Source of the DNA: Gammaproteobacteria bacterium | GTDB taxonomy: Bacteria > Pseudomonadota > Gammaproteobacteria > Eutrophobiales > Eutrophobiaceae | NCBI GenBank assembly: GCA_965116495.1 | Contig: OZ220696.1 | Coordinates: 384,001 to 448,000 of the forward strand | Length of the DNA: 64,000 nt | Reading direction: 5' to 3' | Part shown: positions 6,985-33,160 of the stretch, piece after piece | Layout: each line of letters starts with the position of its first letter | Position numbering within the stretch: the stretch's first letter is position 1 | Translations under genes and position numbers: made by a program | Notes under the pieces: model-generated | Databases searched by the model: none | Seen by the model: the letters and a program-made list of their open reading frames with translations, nothing else | Told to the model about the DNA's origin: nothing

Positions 6985-7035
6985 GGGGACGGACCCCCGC
7001 TGACAACATGCGGGGGCATGCTTAAGTCCGTCCCC
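6985..7035. repeat. GGGGAC-type palindromic repeat (family B) with inner hairpin
   Basis: GGGGACGGAC ... GTCCGTCCCC enclosing CCCCGC/GCGGGG. Confidence 0.7.
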
Positions 7036-7115
7036 AATGCAACATGCCTGTTTCATCTCATGAATAATTGTATAAAAACTGCTATCTTACTGAAAAAACA
7101 TCATGTTGGAACAGA

Positions 7116-8366: not shown

Positions 8367-8367
8367 C

Positions 8368-8432
8368 AGTGATGGGGTCAGGTCGCACATTGCACATGTA
8401 ATGTGTGCAATGTGCGACCTGACCCCATCACT
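8368..8432. repeat. REPIN-like hairpin doublet (family A)
   Basis: 29-bp perfect inverted repeat AGTGATGGGGTCAGGTCGCACATTGCACA, 7-nt loop, between convergent ligR and ligI. Confidence 0.9.
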
Positions 8433-8442
8433 TGCAATATCA

Positions 8443-9330
8443 TCAACTGGCTTCTTCCGGCCAATACAGGCGCATGGGGTTATCTACCAGCAGTTTTTGT
8501 TGCAGTTCTTCCGTGGGGGCAATACGGGGTATGTAGTCTACCAGTTTACCATCGTCCGGCATGTGAGACTTCATATTGGGGTGAGGCCAGTCGGTTCCCC
8601 ATAACACGCGGTCCGGGAAAGCGTCGATCACACGCCGGGCGAAGGGGATGACATCTTCGTATCCTGGCGGACCAACTGCTGAAATCCGTTCCGGGCAACT
8701 GACCTTCGACCAGAAATTCTCATTCTCAGCCAGCAGTTTGATAAAGAGATTGAACCCTGGGCCATCGACCGGTTGGCTGACATCAGGGCGGCCCATATGA
8801 TCCACCACCACCGTGGCAGGCAGGGATGTGAAGAAATTGTAATACTCTGCCAGGTCCGCTGCCTCAAAATAGATGACGATGTGCCAGCCCAAAGGTACGA
8901 TTCGCTCTGCGATGCCGGCCAGTTCGTCAATGGGCAAGCTGTCCACCAGGCGCTTTACGAAATTGAAGCGTGCGCCGCGTACACCGGCTGCATGCAATTG
9001 TGCCAATTCATCACCAGTTACAGTCGATCGCACCGTGGCGATACCCCGAGCCTTGCCGCGGGAGGATTGCAAGGCATCCGCCAGAGCACGATTGTCTGCG
9101 CCATGGCAGGTGGCCTGCACGATCACATTGCGGGAGAAACCAAGGTGATCACGCAATTGCCATAGTTTGTCCTTGCCTGCATCGCAAGGGGTGTACTTTC
9201 TCTCCGGTGCAAAAGGGAACTCTGCCGCGGGGCCAAATACGTGGCAGTGTGCATCCACGGCGCCATCAGGCACTACGAATCCAGGTGCGCCGGGCGCCGG
9301 GTGAAATGGCAACCAATCGGGATCCATCAT
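8443..9330 (-). CDS. ligI: 2-pyrone-4,6-dicarboxylate lactonase
   Basis: DAHCHVFGP, ERKYTPCDA, VQATCHG, WGTDWPHPNM. Confidence 0.92.
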   Translation of the reverse strand: MMDPDWLPFHPAPGAPGFVVPDGAVDAHCHVFGPAAEFPFAPERKYTPCDAGKDKLWQLRDHLGFSRNVIVQATCHGADNRALADALQSSRGKARGIATVRSTVTGDELAQLHAAGVRGARFNFVKRLVDSLPIDELAGIAERIVPLGWHIVIYFEAADLAEYYNFFTSLPATVVVDHMGRPDVSQPVDGPGFNLFIKLLAENENFWSKVSCPERISAVGPPGYEDVIPFARRVIDAFPDRVLWGTDWPHPNMKSHMPDDGKLVDYIPRIAPTEELQQKLLVDNPMRLYWPEEAS

Positions 9331-10157
9331 TTACCGGCCTTGCTTCCGTCAGTAGTTCCGGCGTTTTGAATCGAGGGAATAGCCGGCAAGCCCTCGGACA
9401 TGAGATTTTTCAGATTTTCCACTGTGGAATCAGTCATCAATGGCTCAATGCCCAGTTCCCGCAATAACACGGCAGACGCCTCCATTTCATGCAGGCGGCG
9501 CTTTGCGTGCACGTCGGAGCCCGTAACCAGGCGCTCCAGCAAGCGTTCATCAGCCTGTGTAATTTCTGTACTGATGTTTTGCCACAACCACTCGGACAAA
9601 CCCGCTTGTTCCGCACCGCGCAAGGCCTCAATAACCACAGCGGCCAGTCCTTTTGTAAATACACTGCGTAACAACTTGCGGGTGGCTGCGTCACCCGCCC
9701 TGGTTCCCAGAGATTCTACCGGCATGCCCAGGGGCAAAAAAGACTTTACAAACCGGTCAGCCCCCGTACCTGCTGCCAGTGCCCGGGTACGTATGCCCCT
9801 GCCCGGCACGATCTCCACCAGGGCAATGTCGGCAAAAGCGATACCGCGTTCGTCTGCTTTCTCAGCCAGTTGGCGTTTCAAGCCCGCAGAACCTGTAGAA
9901 AAATCGGCATAGAGTGCATTTTGGGGTATCTGCTCGAAGGACTGTGACAATGCTGTGGCAGCGTCCGAGGCCGCCGTTAACGCAAGGACCGCATCCACAC
10001 CGGCTACCGCCTCTCCCGGGTCTTCGAAACGGCTTACTCCAGCCGGCGTTATCACGGGTGCGGGATCGTAGGCTTGCACGGAAATACCGGCCGACAGCAG
10101 GTCTGAACTGATGATTGAGCCGGCTTCGCCCAGACCAAAAATGCACACGGTTTTCAT
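9327..10157 (-). CDS. NAD(P)-dependent oxidoreductase, beta-hydroxyacid dehydrogenase-like with DUF1932
   Basis: GLGEAG Rossmann motif, KLLRSVFTKGL, HAKRRLHEM; overlaps ligI start. Confidence 0.8.
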   Translation of the reverse strand: MKTVCIFGLGEAGSIISSDLLSAGISVQAYDPAPVITPAGVSRFEDPGEAVAGVDAVLALTAASDAATALSQSFEQIPQNALYADFSTGSAGLKRQLAEKADERGIAFADIALVEIVPGRGIRTRALAAGTGADRFVKSFLPLGMPVESLGTRAGDAATRKLLRSVFTKGLAAVVIEALRGAEQAGLSEWLWQNISTEITQADERLLERLVTGSDVHAKRRLHEMEASAVLLRELGIEPLMTDSTVENLKNLMSEGLPAIPSIQNAGTTDGSKAGK

Positions 10158-18500: not shown

Positions 18501-19370
18501 TCAGATTATAAAGATTCCTGCGTCAGTATTAACCTGGTCTGATGAGATGTCCGCGTCAGTGTCAGTATTAACTTGGTCCGATGAGGTATCCGCGTTGGTA
18601 TCCACTTCTACCACATCGATGTTTGCGAAGAAATCCATTGTACCGTCCCCGTCGATATCGAGATCGAAGGTGTCGGGGTTGGTATTGATGTCGTGGATAT
18701 CGGAAACGAGATCGGGTTCAATCCAGCGGTAATATTCGCTTTCTTCGGTAATGATGAGGCCGTTTTCATCATAAACGGGGGAACGGCCGGTGCCGTCGGC
18801 GTTTTCGCTGATAGGAGCTTCGCGAGTATAGTATCCTTCTGTATCCATCTCTCCATTTTGGTTTGTGTCAATCCACATTTTTATTTGATATTGCTTGTTT
18901 TCCTCCAGGCCTGAAAACCAGGTAACGCTTCCGAAGCGGTCAAAGCCTAATTCTATCAAGGTATCGCTGGGATTATTCAGGACAATCTCTTCATAGTTGA
19001 TATGTATTATTCGCTGCCACTCGCCAGGATTGCCATTTTCATCTAGTTCCCGGATTAGTAGGTAGGTCATATTAACCATCTCTTGTACATATATTGGCCA
19101 GGTTTGTTTAGAGATTGGCCCTTCAGTCGTTGGGTCAAAGTCGGTATGGTGTATGTCTGACTCTGGTTGCCCCTGCCCTTCGTACAACTGATAGAAATCA
19201 CCATCATCATGATCAAAGTCCATGTAGAGAGCGAAGCCGGTTTCATTGTTGATTACATCGAGGTGTATTGAGTATTTGCTGGTCAGTCCGAGGTCGTCCA
19301 GTGTATTGCTGCCGGTCTGTTCAAGGTCTAGTGTAAATTCGGCCATGTCTTGCATTGTGGTTTTCCTCAT
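18501..19370 (-). CDS. Highly acidic hypothetical protein with Dx[DN]xDG-like motifs
   Basis: 289 aa, D/E/T/N-rich, DTNQNGEMD, DIDGDGTMD, repeated SSDQVNTD. Confidence 0.7.
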   Translation of the reverse strand: MRKTTMQDMAEFTLDLEQTGSNTLDDLGLTSKYSIHLDVINNETGFALYMDFDHDDGDFYQLYEGQGQPESDIHHTDFDPTTEGPISKQTWPIYVQEMVNMTYLLIRELDENGNPGEWQRIIHINYEEIVLNNPSDTLIELGFDRFGSVTWFSGLEENKQYQIKMWIDTNQNGEMDTEGYYTREAPISENADGTGRSPVYDENGLIITEESEYYRWIEPDLVSDIHDINTNPDTFDLDIDGDGTMDFFANIDVVEVDTNADTSSDQVNTDTDADISSDQVNTDAGIFII

Positions 19371-19441
19371 TGAGAATTGGAGAAATCTAAATAACCTTAT
19401 CTAATGCCGGGAGAATAAGCAAATTTATAGGCTTAGTGCGG

Positions 19442-20467
19442 ATGGGGTCAGGTCGCACAATGCACATCGCCCGTAACAGGTTCCAGATTGGCCTGATCTA
19501 TTTGAAAAGCAGGTAGACTATTAGTAGGATTTCAACTAACCTCTGAATAAGTCAGCATTCCGTAACAGGGATTTTGTATAAATCAGCTTTCAAGGATGAA
19601 CTTATGGCAAGACCTCTCCGAATAGAATTTGCAGGAGCACTCTACCACATCACCTCCCGCGGTAACGCACGTGCTGATATATTTTCAGATGATTTTGACC
19701 GTTATCAATTTCTCAAGCTGCTGGGTGAAGCAGGCAAGCGGTTTGGTTGGTTGTGTCATGCGTACTGCTTAATGTCCAACCACTATCACTTGCTCATCGA
19801 AATCGGCCAGCCCGGATTGTCTAAGGGAATGCGCTTCCTCAACGGCGTTTATACGCAACGCTATAATAAACGACATGCCAGAGTAGGGCACTTGTTCCAG
19901 GGCCGGTTCAAAGGAATCCTGGTAGAGAGTGACGCCTATTTTTTAGAGCTGGTACGGTACATTGTTTTAAACCCCGTTCGAGCCCGGATGGTGAGACAGG
20001 CTCAAGAATGGCCTTGGAGCAGTTACCGGGCCACGGCAGGGCTGGCACGCCCCGAACCTTGTTTAACAATTGACAGGGTATTAGCCGAATTTTCGGAAAG
20101 GTGTGACAGTGCAAGAGCGAAGTATCAGGAGTTTGTTAACACCGATCAAAACCAACCCTCACCTTGGGAGAATCTCAAAAATCAAATTTACCTGGGCTCG
20201 GATTCCTTTGTGCAGGAAATGCTGAATCATATAGAACCGGATAAGGTTTCTAAGGATATCCCGAAGCCGCAAACGCTGGCTCCTCCTAAACCGCTTGACT
20301 ACTACGAATCAGCATTTACGACGCGTCAAAGCGCAATGTCTGCTGCCTATCGGTCAGGGCATTACACTATGGTTAAAGTGGCGGAGCATTTTGGAGTCAG
20401 CAGAACTACAGTGGGCCGAGCGTTGAAAGAATGAGCCTCAAGTGTGCATTGTGCGACCTGACCCCAT
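19442..20467. mobile_element. RAYT-like element with perfect 25-bp terminal inverted repeats
   Basis: ATGGGGTCAGGTCGCACAATGCACA at 19442-19466 and its reverse complement at 20443-20467 enclose the transposase. Confidence 0.9.
19604..20434 (+). CDS. HUH Y1 (REP-associated tyrosine-type) transposase with C-terminal HTH
   Basis: MARPLRI, YHITSRGN, HUH motif NHYHLL, GHLFQGRF, YIVLNPVRA, WSSY, HTH VAEHFGVSRTTVGRA. Confidence 0.92.
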   Translation: MARPLRIEFAGALYHITSRGNARADIFSDDFDRYQFLKLLGEAGKRFGWLCHAYCLMSNHYHLLIEIGQPGLSKGMRFLNGVYTQRYNKRHARVGHLFQGRFKGILVESDAYFLELVRYIVLNPVRARMVRQAQEWPWSSYRATAGLARPEPCLTIDRVLAEFSERCDSARAKYQEFVNTDQNQPSPWENLKNQIYLGSDSFVQEMLNHIEPDKVSKDIPKPQTLAPPKPLDYYESAFTTRQSAMSAAYRSGHYTMVKVAEHFGVSRTTVGRALKE

Positions 20468-20473
20468 TCTACC

Positions 20474-20505
20474 TGGGCAAATACCCGGATGCCCGGCGTT
20501 CCCCG
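20474..20505. repeat. 32-bp direct repeat, copy 2
   Basis: Identical to 18096-18127 (3' end of MFS gene). Confidence 0.9.
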
Positions 20506-20522
20506 GGTTGGGCACCGGTACC

Positions 20523-20915
20523 CTATTGTGGCATGTAGTTAATTCTGAAGGGGTTTCCTTCCGGGTCTCTTAATACCGCTTGATACCAACCATAGTAGGT
20601 TTCAAACGGCGGTTTAAGCATTGTTCCACCCAGTTCAACTGCATAATTGCAACGAGCATCAACATCTTCCCGGCTTGATGCACCAAAGGTTATTAAGAGC
20701 GTGTCTGTTTGGGTATCTGGTTTAGTTAGTGACAAAAGCCCGTAGGCATCCAGGCTACTTATGCCGATACAACATGCGCCTGTTTCGAAGCCTCTGAAAT
20801 AATCTGAACGACTTGCCGTTATCTCTTCAAGATTAAATAGTGTTTGATAATACTCAGCAAGGGCAACCATGTTCTTTGCAAACACATTGACATAGAATAA
20901 TGGATATTTATTCAT
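20523..20915 (-). CDS. VOC/glyoxalase family protein
   Basis: AEYYQTLF, GGTMLKPPFETYYGWYQAVLRDPEGNPF; start MNKYP preferred. Confidence 0.85.
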   Translation of the reverse strand: MNKYPLFYVNVFAKNMVALAEYYQTLFNLEEITASRSDYFRGFETGACCIGISSLDAYGLLSLTKPDTQTDTLLITFGASSREDVDARCNYAVELGGTMLKPPFETYYGWYQAVLRDPEGNPFRINYMPQ

Positions 20916-20932
20916 TTTATTTCTTAATAGAG

Positions 20933-21916
20933 TCAAGCTGATTTTCCGTACGTTTTCTCATACATGTAAGCAACATGTTCCCCGGCAGTCGTCTCCGGGA
21001 AATCCAGCTCTCCGGATTCAGGCATGCAGGTAGGGACACATTTGACCTTGTAAAAATAATCAGGATCAAAGAAAGTGGGGCAGGAATAGCGGCTTTTGCC
21101 ACTCTGGTTATTAACGACACGGTGCATATTGGAGCGATATACACCATTGGTGAACACACGCATCATTTCGCCCAGATTGACGACAAACGTGCCTTCTATT
21201 GGAGGGGTTCTGATCCAGTCACCTGCGGAGTTTTGCACTTCCAATCCGCCAATATCGTCCTGCAAAAGCATGGTTAACATACCCCAGTCCGTGTGTGCCC
21301 CTGCCCCAAGTTGATTGGCAACAATTTCGGATTCCTGGGACGGATAATGCAGCAGACGGCCAACCATCACAGGTTCGGATAAGCCCTCGTCGAAATAAGC
21401 CTCGGTCAGATCCAGTGACAAGGCGAGTATCTTTGAAAGCGTTCTGCCCAGGTCCCGCATCAAATCAACATATTCATTAAATGAATCTTTAAAACCCTCT
21501 GGTTGTTCCGGCCATTGATTGGAACCCGTGTTGGGCACTCCTTGTTTCACATAAGGGTGGTTTTCATCCAGGTCATTACCGATAAGAAAGCCTTCTTTTA
21601 AATCGGGTGGCGAACCTTCGTCTAACGTCTGTGCCTTGATAGGTTCGTAGCCGCGAGTACAGGATGAGTTGTTGATATGAACTCTGTTCTTATCCGCTGC
21701 AGGCAAAGCGAAGAATAGTCTTGCCAGCTCAAGATGTTGCTCCATGCGCTCAACAGGAATGCCGTGGTTACTGATATAAAAGAATCCTGTTTCCCTGGAG
21801 GCTTTATGCACCTCCCATGCCACGGCTTTCTTCGCCTCTATATCACCGGAAAAATAAGGGGTAAGGTCAATAACCGGTATCCTGTCAGCGGCCTTTGCGG
21901 GGGTGTAAGTAATCAT
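20933..21916 (-). CDS. 2-oxoglutarate/Fe(II) oxygenase, isopenicillin N synthase-like
   Basis: IPVIDL, GFFYISNHG, HTDWG, HRVV, RYS. Confidence 0.92.
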   Translation of the reverse strand: MITYTPAKAADRIPVIDLTPYFSGDIEAKKAVAWEVHKASRETGFFYISNHGIPVERMEQHLELARLFFALPAADKNRVHINNSSCTRGYEPIKAQTLDEGSPPDLKEGFLIGNDLDENHPYVKQGVPNTGSNQWPEQPEGFKDSFNEYVDLMRDLGRTLSKILALSLDLTEAYFDEGLSEPVMVGRLLHYPSQESEIVANQLGAGAHTDWGMLTMLLQDDIGGLEVQNSAGDWIRTPPIEGTFVVNLGEMMRVFTNGVYRSNMHRVVNNQSGKSRYSCPTFFDPDYFYKVKCVPTCMPESGELDFPETTAGEHVAYMYEKTYGKSA

Positions 21917-22087
21917 AGAATGGGGTCAGGTCGCACAATGCACGTTGTAATCATAGAATGGGGTCAGGTCGCACAATACACGTTGTAGGTGAAGTGACGT
22001 TGTATTTTGGAATCAGCAGAACTGCAGCGGGCCGAACGTTGAAAGAATGAGCCTCAAGTGTGCATTGTGCGACCTGACCCCATTCTA
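21916..22087. mobile_element. Short deletion derivative of RAYT element with tandemly duplicated left end
   Basis: 28-bp inverted repeat TAGAATGGGGTCAGGTCGCACAATGCAC; 38-bp tandem duplication 21909-21984; interior matches the last codons of the transposase. Confidence 0.9.
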
Positions 22088-22091
22088 CATT

Positions 22092-23291
22092 CTACCCATT
22101 TAACTGGACTCTGAGTTCGCTTACTTCGCTGACAAACATATTGGTGTTTATCTTGAAGCTTTTTAACCGGGCATTGGAGTAGCTGCCTACCAGTTCTGCG
22201 ACGGCTTCCTGGGTCTCGATTAATGCTACATGCTGGCCGAGACAGGAGTATAGGCCGCCGCCGAAGTCCAGCAGATGGTGGACAACTTTCCGGGTCGGAT
22301 CGTAGCGTAACGGATCGTCGTAAACCCTCGGGTCGCGGTGGGCCGCGGGTATCAAGTGATGGACCGGTGTGCCTTCAGGGATCAGGACTCCACCATATTC
22401 CAGGTCTTCTGAAGCATAGCGCATCAGCGTATTGATACGGCCGGACAAACGGATAGTTTCATCGACAGCAGCAGGAATCAGCTCAGGATGATCAATGACT
22501 TGTTGCCAGCGTTGCCTGTCACTCGCAAGCCGGCCGATGACCGTGGCGATGCCATGGGCGGTATTGTCGGTACTGGCCTCGTTGAACATGGAGACAATGT
22601 GGAACAACTCCTGCTCACTGAAATGACCGGCCTGGTGCTGGGCAATGAAATTGGCGAGGAGATTTTCCTTCGGCGCTTCCATTGCATTGTCTATGAGGCT
22701 TTGGACATAGGGAAACAATTCATCGTAGGCGGCGATAATACCGGGGGTAAATTCAGGATTTCTGCTGAATATCTTCAGAAGCCGGTCAGACAGGTCGGCG
22801 ATCCAGGGGGCATCACTCAGCGGTGCGCCAAACCATAGACAAAACAGGCTGGATGGGACCGAAAAAGCAAAATCGTGCAGCAGATCGGTTTCTGTGTCCG
22901 GCTCTATGTTCTGCAGGAGGTCCTTGACCAGTTGCCGGATCATGGGGCGTTGTTCTTCGATAACCGAGGCGCCGATTGCCCGCGTCAATGCCTGGCGGAT
23001 ACGCGTGCGGTATGCATCCCGGCCGTGGCTTAATAACATGCATCTCTTGAATTCCTTTGCCGGTCCTTCAGGAAAGTTCATGGCCTCGACCAGGCCCATA
23101 TGATCTGAATGTAAGCGCCGATCCCTTAACAAGCCGACACATTCCTTATGTCCCAGCACTTCCAGCCCGCGGGCACTGCGGGCGAAGGGCCCCCGTTCGT
23201 GGGCCGACATGACAATAGCATCAAAATCGTCACTGGAGGCAAAGGCTGCGGTGATATCAATGGTGGGGAGTTGGTCGATGGTGAGTGTCAT
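22092..23291 (-). CDS. Cytochrome P450
   Basis: ETIR (ExxR), HRDP, FGGGLYSCLG; I-helix EASTDNT. Confidence 0.92.
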   Translation of the reverse strand: MTLTIDQLPTIDITAAFASSDDFDAIVMSAHERGPFARSARGLEVLGHKECVGLLRDRRLHSDHMGLVEAMNFPEGPAKEFKRCMLLSHGRDAYRTRIRQALTRAIGASVIEEQRPMIRQLVKDLLQNIEPDTETDLLHDFAFSVPSSLFCLWFGAPLSDAPWIADLSDRLLKIFSRNPEFTPGIIAAYDELFPYVQSLIDNAMEAPKENLLANFIAQHQAGHFSEQELFHIVSMFNEASTDNTAHGIATVIGRLASDRQRWQQVIDHPELIPAAVDETIRLSGRINTLMRYASEDLEYGGVLIPEGTPVHHLIPAAHRDPRVYDDPLRYDPTRKVVHHLLDFGGGLYSCLGQHVALIETQEAVAELVGSYSNARLKSFKINTNMFVSEVSELRVQLNG

Positions 23292-23498
23292 GAGACTCCT
23301 GTGGATACCTCTGTTTAAGCCCGTTTAACCGACTGCTATTTTAGCAGGATACAGAGTCTTCCAATCATAATTATTGTTTACAAGTGATGATTATTTGTTA
23401 TGCATCCCCGTAATCGCCCGGGCTTACTGGTAGCTGGTGATAACGCTCATGGCCGATAACTTTTTCGTCATCGTGCCGTCTCCGGTAAGAAATATGGG

Positions 23499-24695
23499 TT
23501 AGCTGCTCGATTCCCGGATCATCTTGCGTAGCATGCGTACGCCGACGAGCTTGATCATCAGACTTTTAAAAAGGGAAGGCGGGGCCGTGTTGGCTGCGGA
23601 AACATACTGGTTGATGCCTAGTTGCTCGCGCAGGTCCTCGGACATGGCCTGCATGGGGCCGTCGGACGGGATGCCGGTCGCATCGGCGATACGCACCATG
23701 CGCTGGAAGTTCGAAATGACCCCGGCCGCATCGACCATCGCTGCGGACCCCATCTTGTCCACCAGGGCCTGACGCGTCGACTCCAGCGCAGCGCCTTCAA
23801 CTCCCATGCAGGCGTTGGTGTACTGCAGCAGTTCGCGGGAATCAGGTATTCCCCTGATCTCGGTGCAGGACGGATCAGTGAGGCCGTCGAAGTCGATGGA
23901 CCCGCCTGTCAGTTCGACGCTCTCACGGAGCATCACCACATGTGAGGCAGTTCAGTAGAAACAGCCGTTGAGTGCGGACACCCGGGCGGCCACTACCTCG
24001 GTCTGGGGGCGGGACAGGGTTCCCTGGGGGGACTTGGTTACATTCCACACCTCGTCAACCTTCAGGTAATGCGCTATGGAAGTATCAAGCAGGGTGCGCA
24101 CCTCGTCGGGGACCAGGCTCAGCGCCCGGATGACGTAGCCGCGCATGTCGCCTTCCCACAGGTCCGCGTCAGGCCCGGAATCTACCCGCATCGGGAGTAT
24201 CGGGACCCAGGCCCGGTCGTAGGCAGCATTGTCGGGACGGTAACGGCTAGGCTCGCCCGGTTGCGGTTCCGGCAGTTCATTCAGGGGCAGGCCGAGGCAG
24301 CGGCAGAATTCGTCTATGGAGAACACCGCGACCTGGGTGCCGATAATTTCAACGTACTGTTCTACGCTGAGACCCTGCTGCATGATCCCGTCAAACCAGC
24401 TTTTCGTGAGCCGCGCCGAATCGGTGGTCACGCGGTGGATGACTTCGACCACCACATCGGGAAGATCGCTGACTGTGTCATGGGCCCCGTCAACCGTGTA
24501 TGGAGATAACGCTTCCTTGCGCCGGCGACAGAGATTGCATTGCTGTGAGTGGCGGATTTCCCTGGCTATGTCGACCCGTTCAGCACCCGTGAACCAATTA
24601 CCCGGAGCAGCCAGGCGCTGCCAGTAACGGTTATGGCTTGCAGCGAAATTCTCGCGCACCGGCCAGGGAGCATTGCTGTAGTCAATCACACTCAT
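23499..24695 (-). CDS. AhpD/alkylhydroperoxidase-like selenoprotein (about 398 aa, Sec at UGA 23952-23954)
   Basis: ORFs 23952-24695 and 23499-23939 are in frame across one TGA: VSALNGCFY-U-TASH (CxxU..H); hairpin downstream. Confidence 0.8.
23902..23950 (-). promoter_or_regulatory. Candidate bacterial SECIS element
   Basis: Directly 3' of UGA: lower stem CUGCCU/AGGCGG, upper stem GAUGCUC/GAGCGUC, apical loop CGUGA. Confidence 0.6.
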
Positions 24696-24750
24696 TTGCA
24701 GGAATTCTCCCTGATTCTACAGGTTGCGTCAACGCAGTTGTTTGCCCGGC

Positions 24751-24824
24751 AAATTTGGGACAGCCATAAATTTCGGACCAGTATAAATTTGGACTGACCA
24801 TCAATTTATGGGTGTCCCAAATTT
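24751..24824. repeat. Palindromic repeat doublet (family C)
   Basis: AAATTTGGGACAGCCATAAATT ... AATTTATGGGTGTCCCAAATTT. Confidence 0.85.
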
Positions 24825-24862
24825 ACTTCCCTGAATATGCTGGTGGCATCAACAACGCGCGA

Positions 24863-27244
24863 CTATTCTCCGTAAGCCCAGCTTAGCTGTGCGCCGAAGG
24901 TGCGTGGCGTCACGGTGAACAACCTGTACGTATCCGGTCCCCAGGAACCGTCTATGTCAATTTTTGCCCGCTTGTCGGTAATGTTGTCCACGAAGAAACG
25001 CAGGCCCCAGTCGCCATGCTGAAAATTGGCGCTCAGGTTCAACAGGAAATAATCTCCAATTTCAACAAAGCCGGGAAAGTTGTCGTTGAAGAACGTGTCG
25101 GATTCACCCGTGTAGGAGAAATTGCCGCGCAGTGATGCTTCCGTGTTATCCAGCATGGTAAACGGGAACGTATATTCCATGGTGCCGGAGAAAGCCCACT
25201 CGGGCACTTTTGGTATATTGTCGCCGTCCACACCCAGGGGAGGGGTAAACCCCGGTGCAGCCAGGCCCGGGTCTACAACTTGATCTTCGGTCAGTTCCGC
25301 ATTGAGCCAGGTGGCGCCGAAGTGCAGCAAAAATTGATCCGTCGGCCGCGCGGACAGTTCAAGCTCGAGCCCGTCCACCTCAGCCTCCGCCGCGTTGGAA
25401 ATGAACTCGACAGCGCCGGTGGGCTCCACGCCGGGCACCTGCATGTTGTCCCAGAACATCTTGAAATACGTCGCATTCAGGGTGATCCGGTCGTCGTTCC
25501 AGGAGGTCTTGGCACCAACCTCGACGCTCAGGACTTCGTCTGAAGTGAACGCAGCGGGGATGCTGATACCGAAAGCGGATGCTGTCGAAGCATCGTTTAT
25601 CCCCCCCTGCCTGAAACCGGTCGCAGCGCGTACGTAGTACATCTGGCTGTCAGTGGGTGCAAAGGACAGGCTGGCATCCCAGGTTATTTCGTCTTCCTTT
25701 GCGACATCATCAACTGTTACTGTCGGAGTAGTCTGGATCGGACCGCCGAACAACGGTGGGATGGTAAAAGCGATACTGCCCTGGAAGGCCTGCAGGGTCT
25801 GCTCCAGGTTATCCTGTTCCGAGTCAAAATAACGCACGCCGCCGCCCAGGGTAATCTGCTCCGTTACCTCGAAATCAACGTGGCCGAATACCGCGAAGAA
25901 CTCAAAATCGATATCCTGGCTGCGGGCGAACGCCAGGGAAGCGCCGGCCAGCGCCGGGTCCGTGATACATTCATCCCTGCTGCGGCAAACGGGTATGCCT
26001 GTGACTATGTCGCCGGCCAGGATATCCAGTTCGGAGTACGTCTCATCGTCTTCGTAGAAGAAACCGCCGACAAAGTTGACCGGACCGTCAAGGTTGGAAC
26101 TGAAGCGGATTTCCGCGTTGAATACATCGCGGTCCTGGAACTGGTGAATGCCGTAGGAGCCGAGCGGAGGACCGAACGCCGGTGGAAAGCCGAATGACAT
26201 GGCGGTGGCCGAGGTGTCTTCCAGAAATTCCACGTTACGCTCGAATTTCGAAATGGAGCCGAGCAGCGAACCGAACCCCAGGTCGTAATCGATGGTGATA
26301 CCGTACATGTCGATATCGTCACCGTAAGGTTCCTGGTGGGCGGTCGATGTCTTCAGGTCGCCGAACGTGCCGTCGAATGCCGGGATAAAATGCGGGAAGG
26401 GCACGACGATCACCTGGGTCGGCGTAAGCAGGCCGCTGGCAACAGGTGCATAGTGCTGGGCGCCGTCCACCTTCGTTTCCTGCATCTGGTAAAACGCATC
26501 GATGGTCAGGTTCTCGTTCGGTGTCAGGCGCGCCATGATGCGGCCGCCGGTTATTTCCGAATCATTAACGTCTTTCAGTTCGGTGGGAGCGTTCAAACCG
26601 GCGTACTGGTCAATATACCCGCCTTGTTCTTTCTGCCAGCCCACCAGGCGCAGGGCAAGCGTGTCCGCAATCAGCGGCACGTTGACCGCGGCGTTGACGG
26701 AGTAACCCTCGTCACCATGCTCGGTCGATTCAAATCCCGCAGAAACATTCATCTCGAACGCGGACGCATCCGGCTTGTTGGTGATGATTCTCACCGCGCC
26801 GCTCATGGAACTGGCCCCGAACAAGGTACCCTGCGGACCTTTCAGCACCTCGATGCGGGCTATGTCATAGGCGCCTATATCGGGCGTACGGCCGCCGCCG
26901 TCCTGGAAGTTGCCGCCGGTGATAGGAGACTCGTCGAAGTAAACACCCACGGTGCTGTCACCGGGTGAGGAAATGCCGCGGATGATCAACTGGGTGTCAC
27001 CCACACCCTGCGTAGCGTATTGCAGCCCCGGTTCCAGGCGGGAGAAATCTTCCAGGGAACGCAGGTCGTGCTTGTCTATGGTATCGCCGGTTATGGCGGT
27101 GATCCCGCCTGCAATGTCCTGTACCGATACTTCGCCGCGTTTGGTCGCGGTAACGACAATTTCTTCAATGCCCTGGGCGTGGACTTCAGACAGACAAAGC
27201 ACAGGTAAGAGTGCAATGATGGAATATTTACTGAAAAATTTCAT
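24863..27244 (-). CDS. TonB-dependent receptor
   Basis: IEEIVVTATKR, RIEVLKGPQGTLFG, PRTFGAQLSWAY. Confidence 0.95.
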   Translation of the reverse strand: MKFFSKYSIIALLPVLCLSEVHAQGIEEIVVTATKRGEVSVQDIAGGITAITGDTIDKHDLRSLEDFSRLEPGLQYATQGVGDTQLIIRGISSPGDSTVGVYFDESPITGGNFQDGGGRTPDIGAYDIARIEVLKGPQGTLFGASSMSGAVRIITNKPDASAFEMNVSAGFESTEHGDEGYSVNAAVNVPLIADTLALRLVGWQKEQGGYIDQYAGLNAPTELKDVNDSEITGGRIMARLTPNENLTIDAFYQMQETKVDGAQHYAPVASGLLTPTQVIVVPFPHFIPAFDGTFGDLKTSTAHQEPYGDDIDMYGITIDYDLGFGSLLGSISKFERNVEFLEDTSATAMSFGFPPAFGPPLGSYGIHQFQDRDVFNAEIRFSSNLDGPVNFVGGFFYEDDETYSELDILAGDIVTGIPVCRSRDECITDPALAGASLAFARSQDIDFEFFAVFGHVDFEVTEQITLGGGVRYFDSEQDNLEQTLQAFQGSIAFTIPPLFGGPIQTTPTVTVDDVAKEDEITWDASLSFAPTDSQMYYVRAATGFRQGGINDASTASAFGISIPAAFTSDEVLSVEVGAKTSWNDDRITLNATYFKMFWDNMQVPGVEPTGAVEFISNAAEAEVDGLELELSARPTDQFLLHFGATWLNAELTEDQVVDPGLAAPGFTPPLGVDGDNIPKVPEWAFSGTMEYTFPFTMLDNTEASLRGNFSYTGESDTFFNDNFPGFVEIGDYFLLNLSANFQHGDWGLRFFVDNITDKRAKIDIDGSWGPDTYRLFTVTPRTFGAQLSWAYGE

Positions 27245-27381
27245 TTCGTTCCCCGGTTGTTAAATTATCCTGCAAACTGCACAATTCAATACGCGACTGT
27301 GTAAAATGAGCACTTGCCGGTAAAATTATACATAATATTGTAAATAGTTGAAGGTGTCCTGTCCCAAATCCGCCTGGGAAC

Positions 27382-27648
27382 TAGTATTCTTTCAACTTGA
27401 TATTGCCATGTTCAGCGGGTCGGGAAGCGGTTGAGCGCAAGGCGCGCCGCGCCGGGAATGGCGCGTCCTTGCCAAGCGGCGTAACGCCGCGGGCGACCGC
27501 TTCCCGGCCCGCCCGCAGGGAGCGACACAGCAACGCCAATACGGCGTTGCAGCCCTTGACAAGGGCGCGTCATTCTCTGCGGGCTGCGCCTTGTCTTGAC
27601 GCCGCTGTGTGGCTCTGAACATGGCAATATCAGGTTGAAAGAGTACTA
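27382..27648. mobile_element. MITE, 267 bp, 34-bp terminal inverted repeats starting and ending in TA
   Basis: TAGTATTCTTTCAACTTGATATTGCCATGTTCAG versus 27615-27648 (2 mismatches); GC-rich non-coding interior. Confidence 0.88.
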
Positions 27649-27662
27649 ACCAGAGGAGATTA

Positions 27663-29267
27663 TTGATGAATGCCGAAGATAAAACGCAATCAGACGTCAG
27701 TGAGTTGAAAGCCAGTCATCACCCGGAACTGGTCCGGCCCGACATGCGCGGGTTTCTCGAATTATTGCAGGAGAAGGATGAGATCATCGTCATCAAGGAG
27801 GAGGTCGATCCGCGAAATTTTGAGTTGTCGGCCATAGTCCAGCACAGTGAGAACGGACCGAACAAGGCGGTTTTGTTTGAAAACGTGAAGGGCTTCGATA
27901 TGCCGGTGGTGGCGAACCTGTACGGCACCATCCACAGGACGGCGCTGGCCCTGGGCATAGTGCCGACGGATGAGCAGATCAAAAAATATTACGACGACCC
28001 GCGCGGCAGTCCCGGATCACTGGCCGGCATGTCCGGCCGCAAGATGAACGGCTTTTCCATGGACCCCCGCTCCCGGGCGGAGCTGATCCTGATCAAGGAA
28101 CTGTTCCTGGACGCAGACCGCAGGGCCTATAACAAGGAAATACCTTATGTCATGACGGCAGATGCGCCCTGCCAGGAGGTGGTGGTCAGGGACAATATCG
28201 ATATCCTGGGCCTGTTGCCCGTGGTCTGGCACCTGAAGGAAGATGCGGGCCCCTACATCACACCGGGCGGCCTGGTACAGAAGGACCCCGATAACGGCCT
28301 GCTCAATATCGGCGTCCGGCGCCACATGGTGAGCCATGAGCGCTACGCGCCGAACCAGGTCGGCGTGCAGATCGGCACGCAGACGCCCGGCGGGAAGATC
28401 ATCCAGAAATACCATGACCGGGGCGAGCCTTGTCCGATGGCTATCTGCCTGGGGCCCGATCCGGCTACATCGGTACTTTCCACCTACTCATCGCCCCATT
28501 ACTGGATGGAACCGCCATACAGCGAGTTTGACATGACCGGGGTCATCAGCAACAGGCCGCTGGAACTGGTGAAGTGCAAGACCATCGATCTGGAGGTGCC
28601 TGCCAATACGGAAATCGTGATCGAAGGGTTATCGCCACCGCCACCGGATAACAAGATAGATGAAGGCCCGATGATGGAGTTTACCGATTATTCCGGTACG
28701 GTCGTCGAGGCGATACCGTACATGGAAGTCACGGCGGTGACTTACAGGAAGAACCCCATTTTCCATACCTGTATGTCCGGTAACTCCGAGGAGCACCGGG
28801 TGGGCTGTATCTGGGCTTTCTTCGGCTATGAACAAATGGCGCTGGAATTGATCAAAAAGCAGTTTCCGCACGTGGTGGATATCGGCATTGCCGCCGGATC
28901 CCACGCGTTTCATGCGGTGGTATCCATGAAGAAGACCTACGAAGGCGAAGACAGGCAGGTGCTCCAGTACCTGCTGGCGACCCAATACTTCAAGTTTGTG
29001 ACGGTAGTGGATGATGATATCGACCCCCATAACAGCGAGCAGGTCGAGTGGGCCAAGGCAACCCGCGCCGGACGCCGGCCGGAAGATTTCATCATCTCAC
29101 CGCAGATGCCGACCTGGGAAATGGATCCGGAGATTGACCGCCACTGGCGTGTCACAAAACTGGGCATACTGGCAACGCGGGATATCGGCGAGTCATACAC
29201 ACAACCGTCACCGGATAGAGCGATGATGGAAAAAATGCGGACAGTATTCGACAAGTACACGCAGTAA
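27663..29267 (+). CDS. UbiD family (de)carboxylase, divergent
   Basis: DMRGFL, AVLFENVKG, EDAGPYIT, VPANTEIVIEG, EGPMMEFTDY, VVDDDIDP. Confidence 0.88.
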   Translation: MMNAEDKTQSDVSELKASHHPELVRPDMRGFLELLQEKDEIIVIKEEVDPRNFELSAIVQHSENGPNKAVLFENVKGFDMPVVANLYGTIHRTALALGIVPTDEQIKKYYDDPRGSPGSLAGMSGRKMNGFSMDPRSRAELILIKELFLDADRRAYNKEIPYVMTADAPCQEVVVRDNIDILGLLPVVWHLKEDAGPYITPGGLVQKDPDNGLLNIGVRRHMVSHERYAPNQVGVQIGTQTPGGKIIQKYHDRGEPCPMAICLGPDPATSVLSTYSSPHYWMEPPYSEFDMTGVISNRPLELVKCKTIDLEVPANTEIVIEGLSPPPPDNKIDEGPMMEFTDYSGTVVEAIPYMEVTAVTYRKNPIFHTCMSGNSEEHRVGCIWAFFGYEQMALELIKKQFPHVVDIGIAAGSHAFHAVVSMKKTYEGEDRQVLQYLLATQYFKFVTVVDDDIDPHNSEQVEWAKATRAGRRPEDFIISPQMPTWEMDPEIDRHWRVTKLGILATRDIGESYTQPSPDRAMMEKMRTVFDKYTQ

Positions 29268-29272
29268 CCGGC

Positions 29273-29408
29273 AAATTTGGGACACCCATAAATTTGGTTC
29301 AAAATTCAGCCGCCCATGGATTGATGGTCAGCCCGAAATTCATGGGTGTCCCAAATTCACACCGGCCCGAAATTTATGGGTGTCCCAAATTTATATCCCA
29401 AATTTATA
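29273..29408. repeat. Family C palindromic repeat with duplicated right arm
   Basis: AAATTTGGGACACCCATAAATTT, then ATGGGTGTCCCAAATT twice (about 29336-29357 and 29370-29392). Confidence 0.85.
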
Positions 29409-29417
29409 CTGGCAACA

Positions 29418-30695
29418 TTGAATAGGTACTCTACCCGGTTTTTTTATGGTTGGCTGATCACGGCAGCGGCAGGGGTGGGGCTGTGTTTTGGTTATGCCGG
29501 CAGCGTGATATACGGGTTCAGTTCCTTTATTCTGCCGCTGTCCGCGGAGTTCGGCTGGTCGCGTCGGGATATCGGTCTTGCGTTCAGCTTTATGGTGACC
29601 ACCGTTTTTCTTGTGAGTCCGCTGATGGGTGTTTTGCTGGACAGGTATGGCGCGCGCCGCTGCCTGTTGACCGGCACGTTGTTGTTCGGACTGTTCCTGT
29701 CCTCGCTGTGCCTGCTGACTCCCGATATCCGCCATTTTTATGCGATGTTTGTTCTGCTGGGTTTATCCGGCACGGCCACCACGGCAATTTGCTATTCACG
29801 CCTGCTGGTGTCCTGGTTTGAAAAAAGAAAAGGCTGGGCCCTGGGGCTCGCCCTGACCGGTACCGGTGTGGGGGCAATGATTGTTCCACCGTTGATACAG
29901 GCTATTATTCAGACAACCGGGTGGCGTGGAGCCTACCTGGCGCTCGGTGCGCTCAACCTCATCATAGTGGCCCCGCTGCTGTATAAGTTCGTACTCAACT
30001 CGCCGGCAGAAAAAAATACCTGGCCGGATGGTATTCCGCCAACGACCGGGGCTGACGAAGATCGGCAGTTACACATGCGCAAGGGCTTTACTCTCGGCCA
30101 GAGCATGAGACAAGGGGTGTTCTGGAAAATCGTAGTCGGGATATTCCTTATTTCCCTGTCCCAGACAGGCCCGTTTGTGCAACTAATCCCGATCCTGAGA
30201 GACGTGGGACTCGAGGAGTTTGCTGCGGCCACTACCGCGTCCCTGCTGGGTGTTGCGGTAATTGGTTCCCGTCTCGTTTGCGGTTACCTGATGGATCGAT
30301 TCTTTGCCCCGTTTGTTGCCGGCGCATTTCTTGTCGCCCCGGTGTTCGGATTCATTGCGTTTGCCCTTGAGCCGTCCATATGGACAGCAGTGATGGTCAC
30401 CGTCCTGCTGGGAATGGCATACGGCGCCGAGTTCGACATCCTGGGGTTTTTTTGCAGCCAGTATTTCGGCCGTCTCTCGTTCGGCAAGATCTACGGCATC
30501 CTGTTCGCGGTCTACAGCCTGGCGGTTGGAGTGGCGGCGCCGCTGGCAGGCTGGAGCTATGATCAGTCCGGCTCTTACGTGGAGATGTTCGTCGCCGGCG
30601 CGCTGGTCAATCTGCTCGCGGTATTCCTGATCCTGACGCTGGGACGCTACCCTGAATTGCCCACCGTCGTTCCTGCGAAAGCAGGAATCCAGTAG
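29418..30695 (+). CDS. MFS transporter
   Basis: FFYGW, LDRYGARR, WFEKRKGWALG, GAEFDI; start TTG 29418 chosen because the upstream extension is repeat DNA. Confidence 0.88.
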   Translation: MNRYSTRFFYGWLITAAAGVGLCFGYAGSVIYGFSSFILPLSAEFGWSRRDIGLAFSFMVTTVFLVSPLMGVLLDRYGARRCLLTGTLLFGLFLSSLCLLTPDIRHFYAMFVLLGLSGTATTAICYSRLLVSWFEKRKGWALGLALTGTGVGAMIVPPLIQAIIQTTGWRGAYLALGALNLIIVAPLLYKFVLNSPAEKNTWPDGIPPTTGADEDRQLHMRKGFTLGQSMRQGVFWKIVVGIFLISLSQTGPFVQLIPILRDVGLEEFAAATTASLLGVAVIGSRLVCGYLMDRFFAPFVAGAFLVAPVFGFIAFALEPSIWTAVMVTVLLGMAYGAEFDILGFFCSQYFGRLSFGKIYGILFAVYSLAVGVAAPLAGWSYDQSGSYVEMFVAGALVNLLAVFLILTLGRYPELPTVVPAKAGIQ

Positions 30696-30829
30696 GAAAG
30701 GTGTCGCCTTAGGCGACTCGTTATATCACTGGGTTCCCGCTTGCGCGGGAATGACGGAGTTGCGCGGAAATGACGGAGTTGCGCAAATGACGGAGTTGCG
30801 CGGGAATGGCGGAGTTGCGCAGGAACGAC
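30665..30829. repeat. CGTC-tagged REP-like pair plus about five tandem 19-bp units (family D)
   Basis: CGTCGTTCCTGCGAAAGCAGGAATCCAGT ... ACTGGGTTCCCGCTTGCGCGGGAATGACG; TTGCGCGGGAATGACGGAG units 30741-30829. Confidence 0.85.
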
Positions 30830-30844
30830 AGCAGGTAATGCTGG

Positions 30845-32191
30845 TCAGAAATCCGGCACCTTCTCCACATCCGGCACCAGCGCTACTTTTTCAAACTCCT
30901 CGCCGAAAGGCCGGGTAGCGTCGATGCCCATGACGGAATAACTACCGTCATCCGGGGCCGAGGGGTCCAGTTGCCACAGGGTCATATTCGGCAGGATCAT
31001 GACGTCTTTTTGTGCCTGGGCGCGGGTGCAGATGGCCCACATCACCTTGTCCATGTCGTGGATGTCGATGTCTTCGTCCACGACGACCGCCAGCTTGCTG
31101 CCCTGGGAACCGAGCAGGGTCGCCAGCACCTGCCTGGCTTCATTGCGGGCATACTGCTTCATGGCGACTATACACATCAGTCCGACACCGCCGGCTCCAT
31201 GAAAATGGACGCGTTTGATACCGGCAAACTTGCGCCTCAGCATAGCGTAGCAGGAAGCCTCCATGGGGATCATTTTCAGTACGTGATTGTCCGTCGTCGG
31301 CACGCCACTCATGCCGGCCAGCAGCACAGGATCATGGCGGTGGGTGATGGCACTGACCTCCATGACGGGTTTGTCCGACGCCTGGGTATAGTAGCCGGTA
31401 TACTCGCCAAACGGGCCTTCATGTTCGCGTACCCCCGGAGGCATCCTGCCTTCTATGATGATTTCCGCGGAGGCCGGTACTTCCAGGTCCAGCGTCTGGC
31501 ACTTGACTACCTCCAGGGGTTCTCCCAGGAACGCGCCTGCCAGGGTCAGTTCATCAACGCCATAGCCTGCTTCCCATTGGGTTGCTATTAACGTGCTGGG
31601 AGCAACACCCAGTGCAATCGCAAGCTCCAGTGGTTTACCCAACGATTCCGCTTTTTTGTAATGAACGCCAAGGTGATGGGGCGGTGGTGACAACACGCCC
31701 AGGCGCCGTTTGCCCAGCACCTGGTGACGATAAATAGAGGCATTCTTGCCGCCGTCCTCGGGATCCCTGCTGATGGCAACACCCAGGGTAATGAACGGAC
31801 CGCCGTCCAGTTCGCAATAAGTCGGGAAGGGTAGCGCAGTGAGGTCAGCCTCATCGCCCAGCCGGATCACTTCATTGCACGGTCCCCGGTCGAGCAGTTT
31901 ATGTTCTTCCAGGTTGTCAATGGCCTCGAGATATTTGGCGTTGGCTTCCTGCTCGGTGGTTTCCAGGGCCTCGAGCATCAGTTGCCGGTTGGCATAGAGT
32001 CCGCCGGCAACCCGGACGTCATGTCCCTTGACCTTCTCAAATAACAGGGCAGGGCCCTTGTCTCCCATGTTCGAAGCCTTGCGCAGGTATGCCGCCAGTT
32101 CGAATTCAAGCGACACTTCATCCCTGATACGCACCAGTCTACCGCTTTCCTCAAGATGGTTGAGAAACTCACGCATATCTTTAAATGCCAT
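30845..32191 (-). CDS. UbiD family (de)carboxylase
   Basis: FKDMREFL, DGGPFIT, EGPFGEYTGYY, VVVDEDIDI, GIDAT. Confidence 0.92.
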   Translation of the reverse strand: MAFKDMREFLNHLEESGRLVRIRDEVSLEFELAAYLRKASNMGDKGPALLFEKVKGHDVRVAGGLYANRQLMLEALETTEQEANAKYLEAIDNLEEHKLLDRGPCNEVIRLGDEADLTALPFPTYCELDGGPFITLGVAISRDPEDGGKNASIYRHQVLGKRRLGVLSPPPHHLGVHYKKAESLGKPLELAIALGVAPSTLIATQWEAGYGVDELTLAGAFLGEPLEVVKCQTLDLEVPASAEIIIEGRMPPGVREHEGPFGEYTGYYTQASDKPVMEVSAITHRHDPVLLAGMSGVPTTDNHVLKMIPMEASCYAMLRRKFAGIKRVHFHGAGGVGLMCIVAMKQYARNEARQVLATLLGSQGSKLAVVVDEDIDIHDMDKVMWAICTRAQAQKDVMILPNMTLWQLDPSAPDDGSYSVMGIDATRPFGEEFEKVALVPDVEKVPDF

Positions 32192-32203
32192 TACCGTCTC
32201 CTC

Positions 32204-33007
32204 TCAGCCTGGTCGTTTATCCTCTACCTGTACCCGGAGACCCGAGCGGACGTGGGGGAAGTAATCCCACACGGCCAGGTGCTGGGTGCAGCGGTTGTCC
32301 CAGAATGCCACGGAGTGGGGCTCCCAGCGGAACCGGACATGAAAATACGGGTCTTCAATATGCTGGTACAGGAATGCGAGGATATGCCGGCTCTCCCGGT
32401 CGCTCAGTTCATTGATATGGCTGGTAAAACCGCGGTTGACGTAAATCACCTTGCGCCCGGTGGCCGGGTGTTCCCGGATAATCGGATGGACGGCTCTCGG
32501 ATACTTGCCGTGCGGGTCAAACCGTCCGAAGGCCAGCATACCGTCATGGGTGGCGGTCAGTGCATCCAGGTAGTCCTTCATGCCGTCCGAAAGCGCGTCG
32601 TAAGCGGCATACATACTGGAGAAGACAGTATCGCCCCCCATGGGCGGCAGCGTATGCAGGTAGAGAATGCTGCCCATCGGCGGCACTTCGGCGCAGGACA
32701 TATCGGTATGCCACTCTTCTCCTGATACATGTTTGGAGTTCTCGTCCGCGTGCAGTTTGCGTACTTCCGGATGGTCGGGAAGTCCTTTAAGTGCATGTTT
32801 CTGCAACGGTCCGAAGTAAAGGCCGACCCGCTTCAGCGAGGCGGCATCAAGCGCCTGGTTGCGAAAGAAAATCACCAAGTGCGCCGCCAGGGCGTTGTGC
32901 AGGTCTTCAAGCTGGATGTCATTCAGCGGTTCCGCCAGGTTGATGCCCGTGACGACTGCCCCGATCCGGGGTGTCAGCGGGGCTACCTCAATGGTTTGGT
33001 ATGTCAT
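32204..33007 (-). CDS. TauD/TfdA family 2-oxoglutarate dioxygenase
   Basis: WHTDMS, GGDTVF, WDNRCTQH; start MTYQTI. Confidence 0.9.
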   Translation of the reverse strand: MTYQTIEVAPLTPRIGAVVTGINLAEPLNDIQLEDLHNALAAHLVIFFRNQALDAASLKRVGLYFGPLQKHALKGLPDHPEVRKLHADENSKHVSGEEWHTDMSCAEVPPMGSILYLHTLPPMGGDTVFSSMYAAYDALSDGMKDYLDALTATHDGMLAFGRFDPHGKYPRAVHPIIREHPATGRKVIYVNRGFTSHINELSDRESRHILAFLYQHIEDPYFHVRFRWEPHSVAFWDNRCTQHLAVWDYFPHVRSGLRVQVEDKRPG

Positions 33008-33160
33008 GGTCTTGTCCCTGTGAACCTCCGGCACATCCGGCGATGGCTGATGATTGATATAGTACCGATTACAGTCGTCAATAATATCACAAATAATATT
33101 GCTGTCTTTCCCTGCCCGTTTAAGATAAATTCACGTATCCAACCGGCGCTTGTACACAAC

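What the first reader, a model, noticed from the sequence alone, without database searches (positions are those of the whole stretch)
23499..24695. Hidden selenoprotein: two ORFs joined by an in-frame UGA with a SECIS-like hairpin
Seen: GCFY-TGA-TASH-VVML is continuous in frame, the UGA falls at the second Cys of the AhpD/CMD CxxC...H motif, and a stem-loop with a G-containing apical loop follows. Established: AhpD-like selenoproteins exist and are often mis-split by gene callers. Inference: a roughly 398-aa two-domain Sec redox enzyme, co-oriented between a TBDR and a P450, possibly with a catabolic role.
Basis: partly seen in the sequence, partly recalled or inferred. Interest (0 to 1): 0.7.

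Follow-up and report, generated by a model that had tools for sequence, protein, structure and literature searches.

The report
Ordinary AhpD-related selenoprotein gene (NF041238)
The two reading frames form one gene whose internal UGA is likely read as the rare amino acid selenocysteine, giving a predicted antioxidant-type redox enzyme, but the family was described in 2005 and is already curated, so this is a correct and ordinary find.

Summary
Read through, it matches NCBIfam NF041238 (AhpD_rel_CFYUT) end to end, 475 bits against a cut-off of 175; this is 'hypothetical protein 1' of the 2005 Sargasso Sea selenoproteome. The genome has selA, selB, selC and selD. All 34 distinct homologous genes examined keep TGA there while their terminal stops vary, and 29 of 31 full-length database homologs have Cys there. 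The downstream hairpin fits the bacterial SECIS model, covaries and is frozen at synonymous sites. The predicted structure has two AhpD-like domains, with an intact Glu-Cys-Tyr-Sec-His site only in the second, so it is likely a selenol peroxide/disulfide reductase. The catabolic reading is weak: the TBDR-plus-P450 context occurs in 1 of 19 related loci, whereas 11 of 17 same-genus relatives place the gene tail-to-tail with selA, mostly beside senA, senB and selD. This scan reported the same family four times before on other genomes. Real, but a new member of a known family.

The parts
23499..24695 (-). Single CDS, 398 aa when UGA248 is read as Sec; NCBIfam NF041238 AhpD_rel_CFYUT member
   Evidence: 475.2 bits, profile 1-356 of 357
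23952..23954 (-). In-frame TGA (codon 248), the Sec codon of C245-F-Y-U248
   Evidence: TGA in 34 of 34 distinct homologous genes; Cys in 29 of 31 full-length database homologs
23916..23934 (-). Bacterial SECIS upper hairpin: 7-bp stem GAUGCUC/GAGCGUC, loop CGUGA, 24 nt after the UGA
   Evidence: model criteria from PMC13188914
24276..24695 (-). N-terminal AhpD-like domain (residues about 1-140), predicted degenerate repeat
   Evidence: separate model pLDDT 97.4; its top 8 VIA hits are all AhpD/CMD/Sestrin folds, Z 4.6-8.1; hhalign N-half vs C-half E 0.006, probability 6%
24528..24539 (-). Conserved C53-x-x-C56 of the N-terminal domain; aligns with C245-x-x-U248 but has no His at +7; role unknown (metal site or second dithiol)
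   Evidence: C53, C56, H72, H87, D92 at least 90% conserved and E116 invariant in 111 sequences; repeat alignment
23628..24218 (-). C-terminal AhpD-like catalytic domain (residues about 160-356)
23940..23999 (-). AhpD helix-turn-helix site E233, C245, Y247, U248, H252; same spacing as PA0269 Glu36/Cys48/Tyr50/Cys51/His55

Best explanation
This is one gene of the known family NF041238 whose in-frame UGA is likely recoded as selenocysteine, giving a 398-residue protein predicted to act as a selenol-based peroxide or disulfide reductase. Inferred: SelB, loaded with Sec-tRNA (selC, made by SelA and SelD), binds the hairpin 24 nt downstream and inserts Sec at 248. Predicted: the chain folds into two AhpD-like domains, a fused pseudo-dimer like Sestrin; only the second carries the full AhpD proton-relay set E233/C245/Y247/U248/H252. 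Inferred by analogy with AhpD: the selenolate attacks a hydroperoxide or a partner disulfide, closes to a C245-U248 selenenylsulfide and is re-reduced by an unknown cellular reductant. The conserved C53xxC56/H72/H87 of the first domain is either a structural metal site or an internal relay (untested). The gene's ancestral place in this genus is likely tail-to-tail with the selA-senA-senB-selD cluster; in this genome a 24-kb aromatic-catabolism block lies between them. My odds: Sec recoding about 0.96; peroxide/disulfide reductase as the real activity about 0.65.
For: Read-through protein matches NF041238 over 1-356 of 357 at 475 bits; the halves take consecutive parts of the same profile, 1-238 and 245-356. 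The Pfam CMD hit passes its cut-off only after read-through (29 bits against 16; cut-off 23). selA, selB and selD are over their cut-offs and tRNA-Sec(TCA) is present. The genome has other TGA-interrupted redox genes: a paralog at C1:189097 and two AhpC/TSA genes. 34 of 34 distinct homologous genes have TGA at the site, while their terminal stops are 14 TGA, 13 TAA, 6 TAG and 1 cut off. Of the 120 best database hits, 115 end exactly at C[FY]Y and 4 are full length with CYYC. 29 of 31 full-length homologs have Cys at 248. Of 41 genomes, 19 carry the gene and 18 carry selA, all 18 among the 19; four same-genus genomes lack both. SECIS covariation and synonymous freeze. Single-chain model pLDDT 96.4, pTM 0.95, with U248 in the first turn of helix 246-262. 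The best VIA hits are all AhpD-fold proteins, Sestrin2 first at Z 16.0, rmsd 3.3, 239 aligned.
Against: No protein-level proof of Sec insertion, and the family is not experimentally characterised in the passages I read. The hairpin's folding energy alone is not exceptional and the SECIS pattern has a high background. The 34 genes and the 41 genomes are mostly one genus, so they are not independent, and they were found with read-through queries. I did not see the DNA of the truncated database hits, so their stop codon is assumed. The protein is below the cut-offs of the AhpD families proper: TIGR00777 13 vs 192, TIGR00778 23.2 vs 27.8, TIGR01926 38.7 vs 81.8. No ahpC lies next to it. In Sestrin2 the first, not the second, Cys is catalytic (PMC4674687), so which residue attacks is uncertain. 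2 of 31 full-length homologs have Gly at 248. The model was folded with Cys in place of Sec.
Confidence: 0.85

Rival explanations
1. Two separate, translationally coupled genes (247 aa and 146 aa) whose products assemble into one enzyme; the UGA is a plain stop.
For: Most database gene calls end at CFY, and a GTG/ATG start lies 12-18 nt after the UGA.
Against: The break would cut the CxxC...H helix between Y247 and H252. The codons between the stop and the second start (TASH) are conserved as amino acids. The site is never TAA or TAG in 34 genes. Full-length Cys homologs exist. No Shine-Dalgarno sequence precedes the second start (sequence). The gene co-occurs with selA.
Confidence: 0.03
2. 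The Sec is real, but the enzyme is not an antioxidant: it is a Bmp8-like reductive dehalogenase or other small-molecule reductase serving the surrounding aromatic catabolism.
For: Debrominase Bmp8 (6ohi) is the second VIA hit, Z 12.4, rmsd 3.0, 176 aligned over residues 160-356. In this genome the gene lies among LigB, PrpF/LigU-like, Rieske demethylase, UbiD, P450 and 2OG-oxygenase genes. Se-dependent dehalogenation by deiodinases is a precedent (recalled).
Against: Peroxidase-related AhpD proteins score within 1-2 Z of Bmp8 and far better by sequence profile (E 4e-17 against 0.019). The catabolic neighbours are not conserved: P450 in 4 of 19 loci, TBDR in 6, both in 1. Bmp8's substrate residues were not compared, and its mechanism is recalled (paper not held).
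Confidence: 0.1
3. The enzyme serves selenium metabolism itself, for example by recycling oxidised selenoneine or selenosugar, which would explain its place beside selA-senA-senB-selD.
For: Tail-to-tail with selA in 11 of 17 same-genus relatives; senA and senB within 6 kb in 7 of 19 loci; SenA and SenB pass their NCBIfam cut-offs in this genome and in relatives.
Against: Selenoprotein genes clustering with sel genes is expected from co-transfer and co-loss alone (established knowledge). The gene is convergent with, not part of, the selA unit. More distant loci L052, L053 and L056 lie near selA/selB without senA/senB. Cys homologs exist outside this context.
Confidence: 0.08
4. A nonsense mutation (pseudogene) or a different genetic code in which TGA means Trp or Gly.
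For: An in-frame TGA alone would fit either.
Against: The same TGA is kept across genes 36-96% identical. TGA ends 14 of 34 of these very genes. The only TCA-anticodon tRNA is called tRNA-SeC and lies right after selB.
Confidence: 0.01

Closest known systems
NCBIfam NF041238 AhpD_rel_CFYUT, 'alkylhydroperoxidase-related (seleno)protein' = 'hypothetical protein 1' of the Sargasso Sea selenoproteome (PMC1088965; listed in Table 1 of PMC13188914)
   Same: Full-length match at 475 bits, CFYUT motif, one Sec in CxxU, downstream bacterial SECIS.
   Different: Nothing defining. This copy has a basic C-terminal helix (residues 375-397) beyond the profile that some homologs lack.
AhpD and peroxidase-related AhpD-core proteins (M. 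tuberculosis AhpD 1gu9, P. aeruginosa PA0269, R. eutropha 2prr, D. radiodurans 6k40)
   Same: Helix-turn-helix site with Glu, Cys-x-Tyr-Cys and His at identical spacing; profile match E 4e-17 to 6k40; fold match.
   Different: Twice the length, with two AhpD-like domains in one chain; Sec in place of the second Cys; below the TIGR00777, TIGR00778 and TIGR01926 cut-offs; no adjacent ahpC.
Human Sestrin2 (5cuf)
   Same: Two AhpD-like domains fused into a pseudo-dimer with only one full catalytic site (PMC4674687); top VIA hit, Z 16.0 over residues 2-343.
   Different: 11% identity; no Pfam Sestrin hit. The catalytic domain is C-terminal here and N-terminal in Sestrin2. CxxU here against a single Cys there. 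The resemblance may come from independent duplications.
Debrominase Bmp8 (6ohi)
   Same: AhpD fold matching the C-terminal domain, Z 12.4; weak profile match E 0.019.
   Different: Single domain, 13% identity, no bmp cluster here; substrate-binding residues not compared.

Membership tests
NF041238 AhpD_rel_CFYUT | HMM score above the curated cut-off (175 bits) over the full profile | tested here: met
   475.2 bits, profile 1-356 of 357
NF041238 AhpD_rel_CFYUT | C-F-Y-U(C)-T motif with Sec or Cys | tested here: met
   CFY-TGA-T; Cys in 29 of 31 full-length homologs
Bacterial selenoprotein | In-frame UGA conserved as UGA and aligned with Cys in homologs | tested here: met
   34 of 34 TGA; Cys homologs
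Bacterial selenoprotein | bSECIS: 3-9 nt loop, 4-16 bp stem, G in the first two loop positions, 16-37 nt spacing, MFE at or below -7.5 | tested here: met
   5-nt loop CGUGA, 7 bp, 24 nt, -12.6 kcal/mol (criteria); covariation
Bacterial selenoprotein | selA, selB, selC and selD in the genome | tested here: met
Bacterial selenoprotein | Selenium shown in the protein | not testable with these tools
   needs 75Se labelling or mass spectrometry
AhpD proper (TIGR00777, TIGR00778, TIGR01926) | Score above the family cut-offs | tested here: not met
   13 vs 191.95; 23.2 vs 27.8; 38.7 vs 81.8
AhpD proper (TIGR00777, TIGR00778, TIGR01926) | Proton-relay residues Glu, Cys, Tyr/His, Cys, His on a helix-turn-helix | tested here: met
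   E233/C245/Y247/U248/H252 with the PA0269 spacing
AhpD proper (TIGR00777, TIGR00778, TIGR01926) | Peroxidase or AhpC-reductase activity | not testable with these tools
   needs an assay
Sestrin | Two AhpD-like domains in one chain | tested here: met
Sestrin | Sequence-level Sestrin family match; N-terminal catalytic domain with one Cys | tested here: not met
   no Pfam Sestrin hit at E up to 0.1; the catalytic site is C-terminal and is CxxU
Bmp8 debrominase | AhpD fold with CxxC/His and Bmp8-specific substrate residues, bmp gene cluster | tested here: inconclusive
   fold Z 12.4, profile E 0.019; no bmp genes among the neighbours scanned; substrate residues not compared

The most novel reading that the evidence does not exclude
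The family, never assayed in the papers I saw, is not a peroxidase but a Sestrin-shaped selenoenzyme acting on small molecules: its Sec248 removes halogens reductively, as Bmp8 does with Cys and deiodinases do with Sec, or recycles oxidised selenoneine from the neighbouring sen cluster, with the N-terminal C53xxC56 as a built-in electron relay.
Probability: 0.12. Interest if true: 0.65.

Novelty: new member of a known kind. Interest (0 to 1): 0.15.

Why it matters
The practical value is annotation: 115 of the 120 best database homologs are truncated at the UGA, so the family is mostly recorded as two hypothetical proteins. The gene itself is not a discovery. Two by-products may help whoever assays this uncharacterised family: the predicted Sestrin-like tandem of two AhpD domains with a second conserved CxxC plus His residues, and the tight link in this genus to selA-senA-senB-selD. 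I found neither point in my literature searches (open-access library only, listings and passages, no supplements read), which does not show that they are unpublished.

Tried and rejected
Plus-strand reading of the coordinates: nonsense. Hairpin stability as evidence: not significant. A SECIS pattern scan to list the genome's selenoproteins: too much background, 120 of 1428 CxxU/UxxC candidates passed, nearly all junk frames. Rfam found nothing in 20000-28000. Promoter and terminator scan of 22000-25000: one promoter-like site against 1.8 expected by chance, no terminator. Molybdopterin oxidoreductases: none of 12 matches had a stop inside the matched part, so no Sec formate dehydrogenase was shown. 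Expression: 11 RNA runs held only small shares of the stretch. Contigs of 4 of them were laid; one 151-nt contig of a near-identical strain bridges the UGA. These are contigs from RNA libraries with no silent-stretch control, so I do not count this as proof of transcription or habitat. Foldseek gave no hit at E 0.001 or better for either model, though the top ranks were AhpD-core proteins. The hhalign support for the internal repeat is weak on its own (probability 6%). The ESM Atlas look-up of the N-terminal half gave unnamed, CMD-like and peroxidase clusters, a lead only. The Bmp8 mechanism paper could not be found. I did not run a complex prediction.

Full report
Observation. The feature lies on the minus strand. 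Positions 24695 to 23499 translate to 398 residues and a TAA, with one internal TGA at 23954-23952, codon 248, in GCFY-U-TASH-VVML. The plus strand gives nothing. A standard ORF scan splits the gene into 247-aa and 146-aa frames.

Identity. The read-through protein matches NCBIfam NF041238, AhpD_rel_CFYUT, 'alkylhydroperoxidase-related (seleno)protein', at 475.2 bits (cut-off 175) over profile positions 1-356 of 357. The two halves alone cover 1-238 and 245-356. [quoted passage not shown] The 2005 paper reports four such sequences, a CXXU motif, SECIS-like stem-loops and no functional evidence (PMC1088965, passages). A full-text search for CFYUT, NF041238 or AhpD_rel returned only that review. 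Four earlier reports of this scan reached the same family on other genomes; I had the match before reading them.

Sec machinery. The genome (99.5% complete, one contig) has selA (597 bits), selB (over cut-off), tRNA-Sec directly after selB, and a fused selD. It also holds a second NF041238 gene with one TGA and two AhpC/TSA genes with one TGA each. Of 41 genomes searched, 19 have the gene over cut-off and 18 have selA; the 18 are all among the 19, the exception being a fragmented genome 88% complete. Four same-genus genomes lack both. These are kin, not independent cases.

The codon. tblastn over the 56 loci then held gave 49 matches, 34 distinct genes after removing duplicates, 36-96% identical to the query apart from itself. 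All 34 have TGA at the site, whereas their terminal stops are 14 TGA, 13 TAA, 6 TAG and 1 cut by a contig end. Of the 120 best of 2189 database hits, 115 end exactly at C[FY]Y, 4 are full length with CYYC and 1 is a fragment. Of the 150 best of 1807 cluster representatives, 98 end in C-x-x, 29 are 320 residues or longer and 23 are other short pieces. I aligned the 31 full-length homologs whose match crosses position 248 (two long ones whose match does not were left out): 29 have Cys and 2 Gly there. I did not see the DNA of the truncated hits.

The hairpin. A 7-bp stem (23934-23928 with 23922-23916) closes the loop CGUGA 24 nt after the UGA, at -12.6 kcal/mol. This meets all four criteria of the published bacterial SECIS model. 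The pattern is weak evidence alone: z -1.8 at best, and 316 of 1500 random TGAs pass my version of it. Conservation is the real evidence. In 20 distinct of 23 aligned sequences, 97.9% of 140 cells pair, 6 are compensatory, and no shuffle of 500 reaches either value; slid stems pair 20-56% (the structure was taken from the query, which favours it). Among 18 close orthologs, codons +6 to +12, which carry the stem, have synonymous diversity 0.019 against 0.33 for 120 other codons, the lowest of 121 windows.

The protein. AlphaFold2 on 111 sequences gives one all-helical chain, pLDDT 96.4, pTM 0.95, folded with Cys for Sec. The eight best VIA matches are all AhpD/CMD-fold: Sestrin2 Z 16.0 (rmsd 3.3, 239 aligned, residues 2-343), Bmp8 Z 12.4, 2pfx 11.7, 3lvy 11.5, 2gmy 10.5. 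The N-terminal 155 residues folded alone (pLDDT 97.4) again return AhpD/CMD folds in the first eight ranks, at modest Z 4.6-8.1. A profile alignment pairs C53xxC56 with C245xxU248 (E 0.006, probability 6%). So the chain is predicted to be a tandem of two AhpD-like domains, as described for Sestrin2 (PMC4674687, passages), but with the full site in the second domain. There E233, C245, Y247, U248 and H252 have the spacing of the five proton-relay residues of PA0269 and M. tuberculosis AhpD (PMC3141380, passages). The first domain keeps C53, C56, H72, H87 and D92 in at least 90% of 111 sequences and E116 in all, but has no His at +7.

Mechanism. Shown: the frame, the codon, the hairpin, the machinery and the conservation. 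Inferred: SelB-dependent Sec insertion (about 0.96). Inferred by analogy: a selenolate that reduces a hydroperoxide or a partner disulfide and resolves with C245 (about 0.65). That the second Cys is the attacking one in AhpD is recalled, and Sestrin2 uses the first. The protein is not a member of AhpD proper by score: it works like an AhpD, and is filed as NF041238.

Context. Here the gene sits between a TonB-dependent receptor and a P450, inside an aromatic-catabolism block. That context is not conserved: in 19 related loci (four of them cut short by contig ends) the P450 ortholog follows in 4, the receptor ortholog precedes in 6, both in 1. In contrast selA lies within 6 kb in 11, selD in 8, and senA and senB in 7 each. 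In 11 of 17 same-genus relatives that have both, the gene is tail-to-tail with selA with under 500 nt between the matches; in 4 the gap is 15-50 kb and in 2 they are on different contigs. In this genome selD, senB, senA and selA lie 24 kb away, just left of the window. The simplest reading is that catabolic cargo was inserted between selA and this gene.

Verdict. The gene is a new member of a described, curated but unassayed selenoprotein family. Interest 0.15.

Noticed in passing
L057:6009-13665 (G000:C1:376009-383665, just left of the window): A selenium cluster: fused selD, senB, senA (selenoneine synthesis) and selA, all over NCBIfam cut-offs, with an unrelated 393-aa ATPase-like ORF between selD and senB.
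   Followed up: partly
L002:1477-2586 (G000:C1:189097-190149): A second NF041238 selenoprotein gene, 37% identical, with its own in-register SECIS hairpin. Several relatives carry two or three copies, and L052 has two in tandem.
   Followed up: partly
G000:C1:3256587-3256976 and C1:1572353-1572712: Two AhpC/TSA-family genes with one in-frame TGA each; the second reads FYRGHW-U-PFC (UxxC). Likely Prx-like selenoproteins.
   Followed up: no
window 337-10157 and 20523-33034: An aromatic-catabolism block: Rieske demethylase, LigB, FAD hydroxylase, two amidohydrolases, RraA-like aldolase, PrpF-like protein and a double-HTH LysR, then a P450, a 2OG oxygenase, two UbiD decarboxylases, TauD, MFS transporters and two TonB-dependent receptors. 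Its gene content and order differ between relatives.
   Followed up: partly
window 23292-23498: The 207-nt gap before the P450 holds an AT-rich stretch and a TGCTAAAAT element conserved in four relatives. It resembles an extended -10 promoter with a regulator box (consensus recalled), which suggests that the P450 has its own promoter.
   Followed up: no
L050:7195-7300: In a close relative about 180 nt of this gap are deleted between two ATGAC copies and only the first codons of the P450 remain; contigs of three RNA runs show the same junction.
   Followed up: no
window 18501-20434: An acidic 289-aa ORF with no Pfam match next to an IS200-like (Y1) transposase gene, between the MFS gene and the glyoxalase gene.
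   Followed up: no
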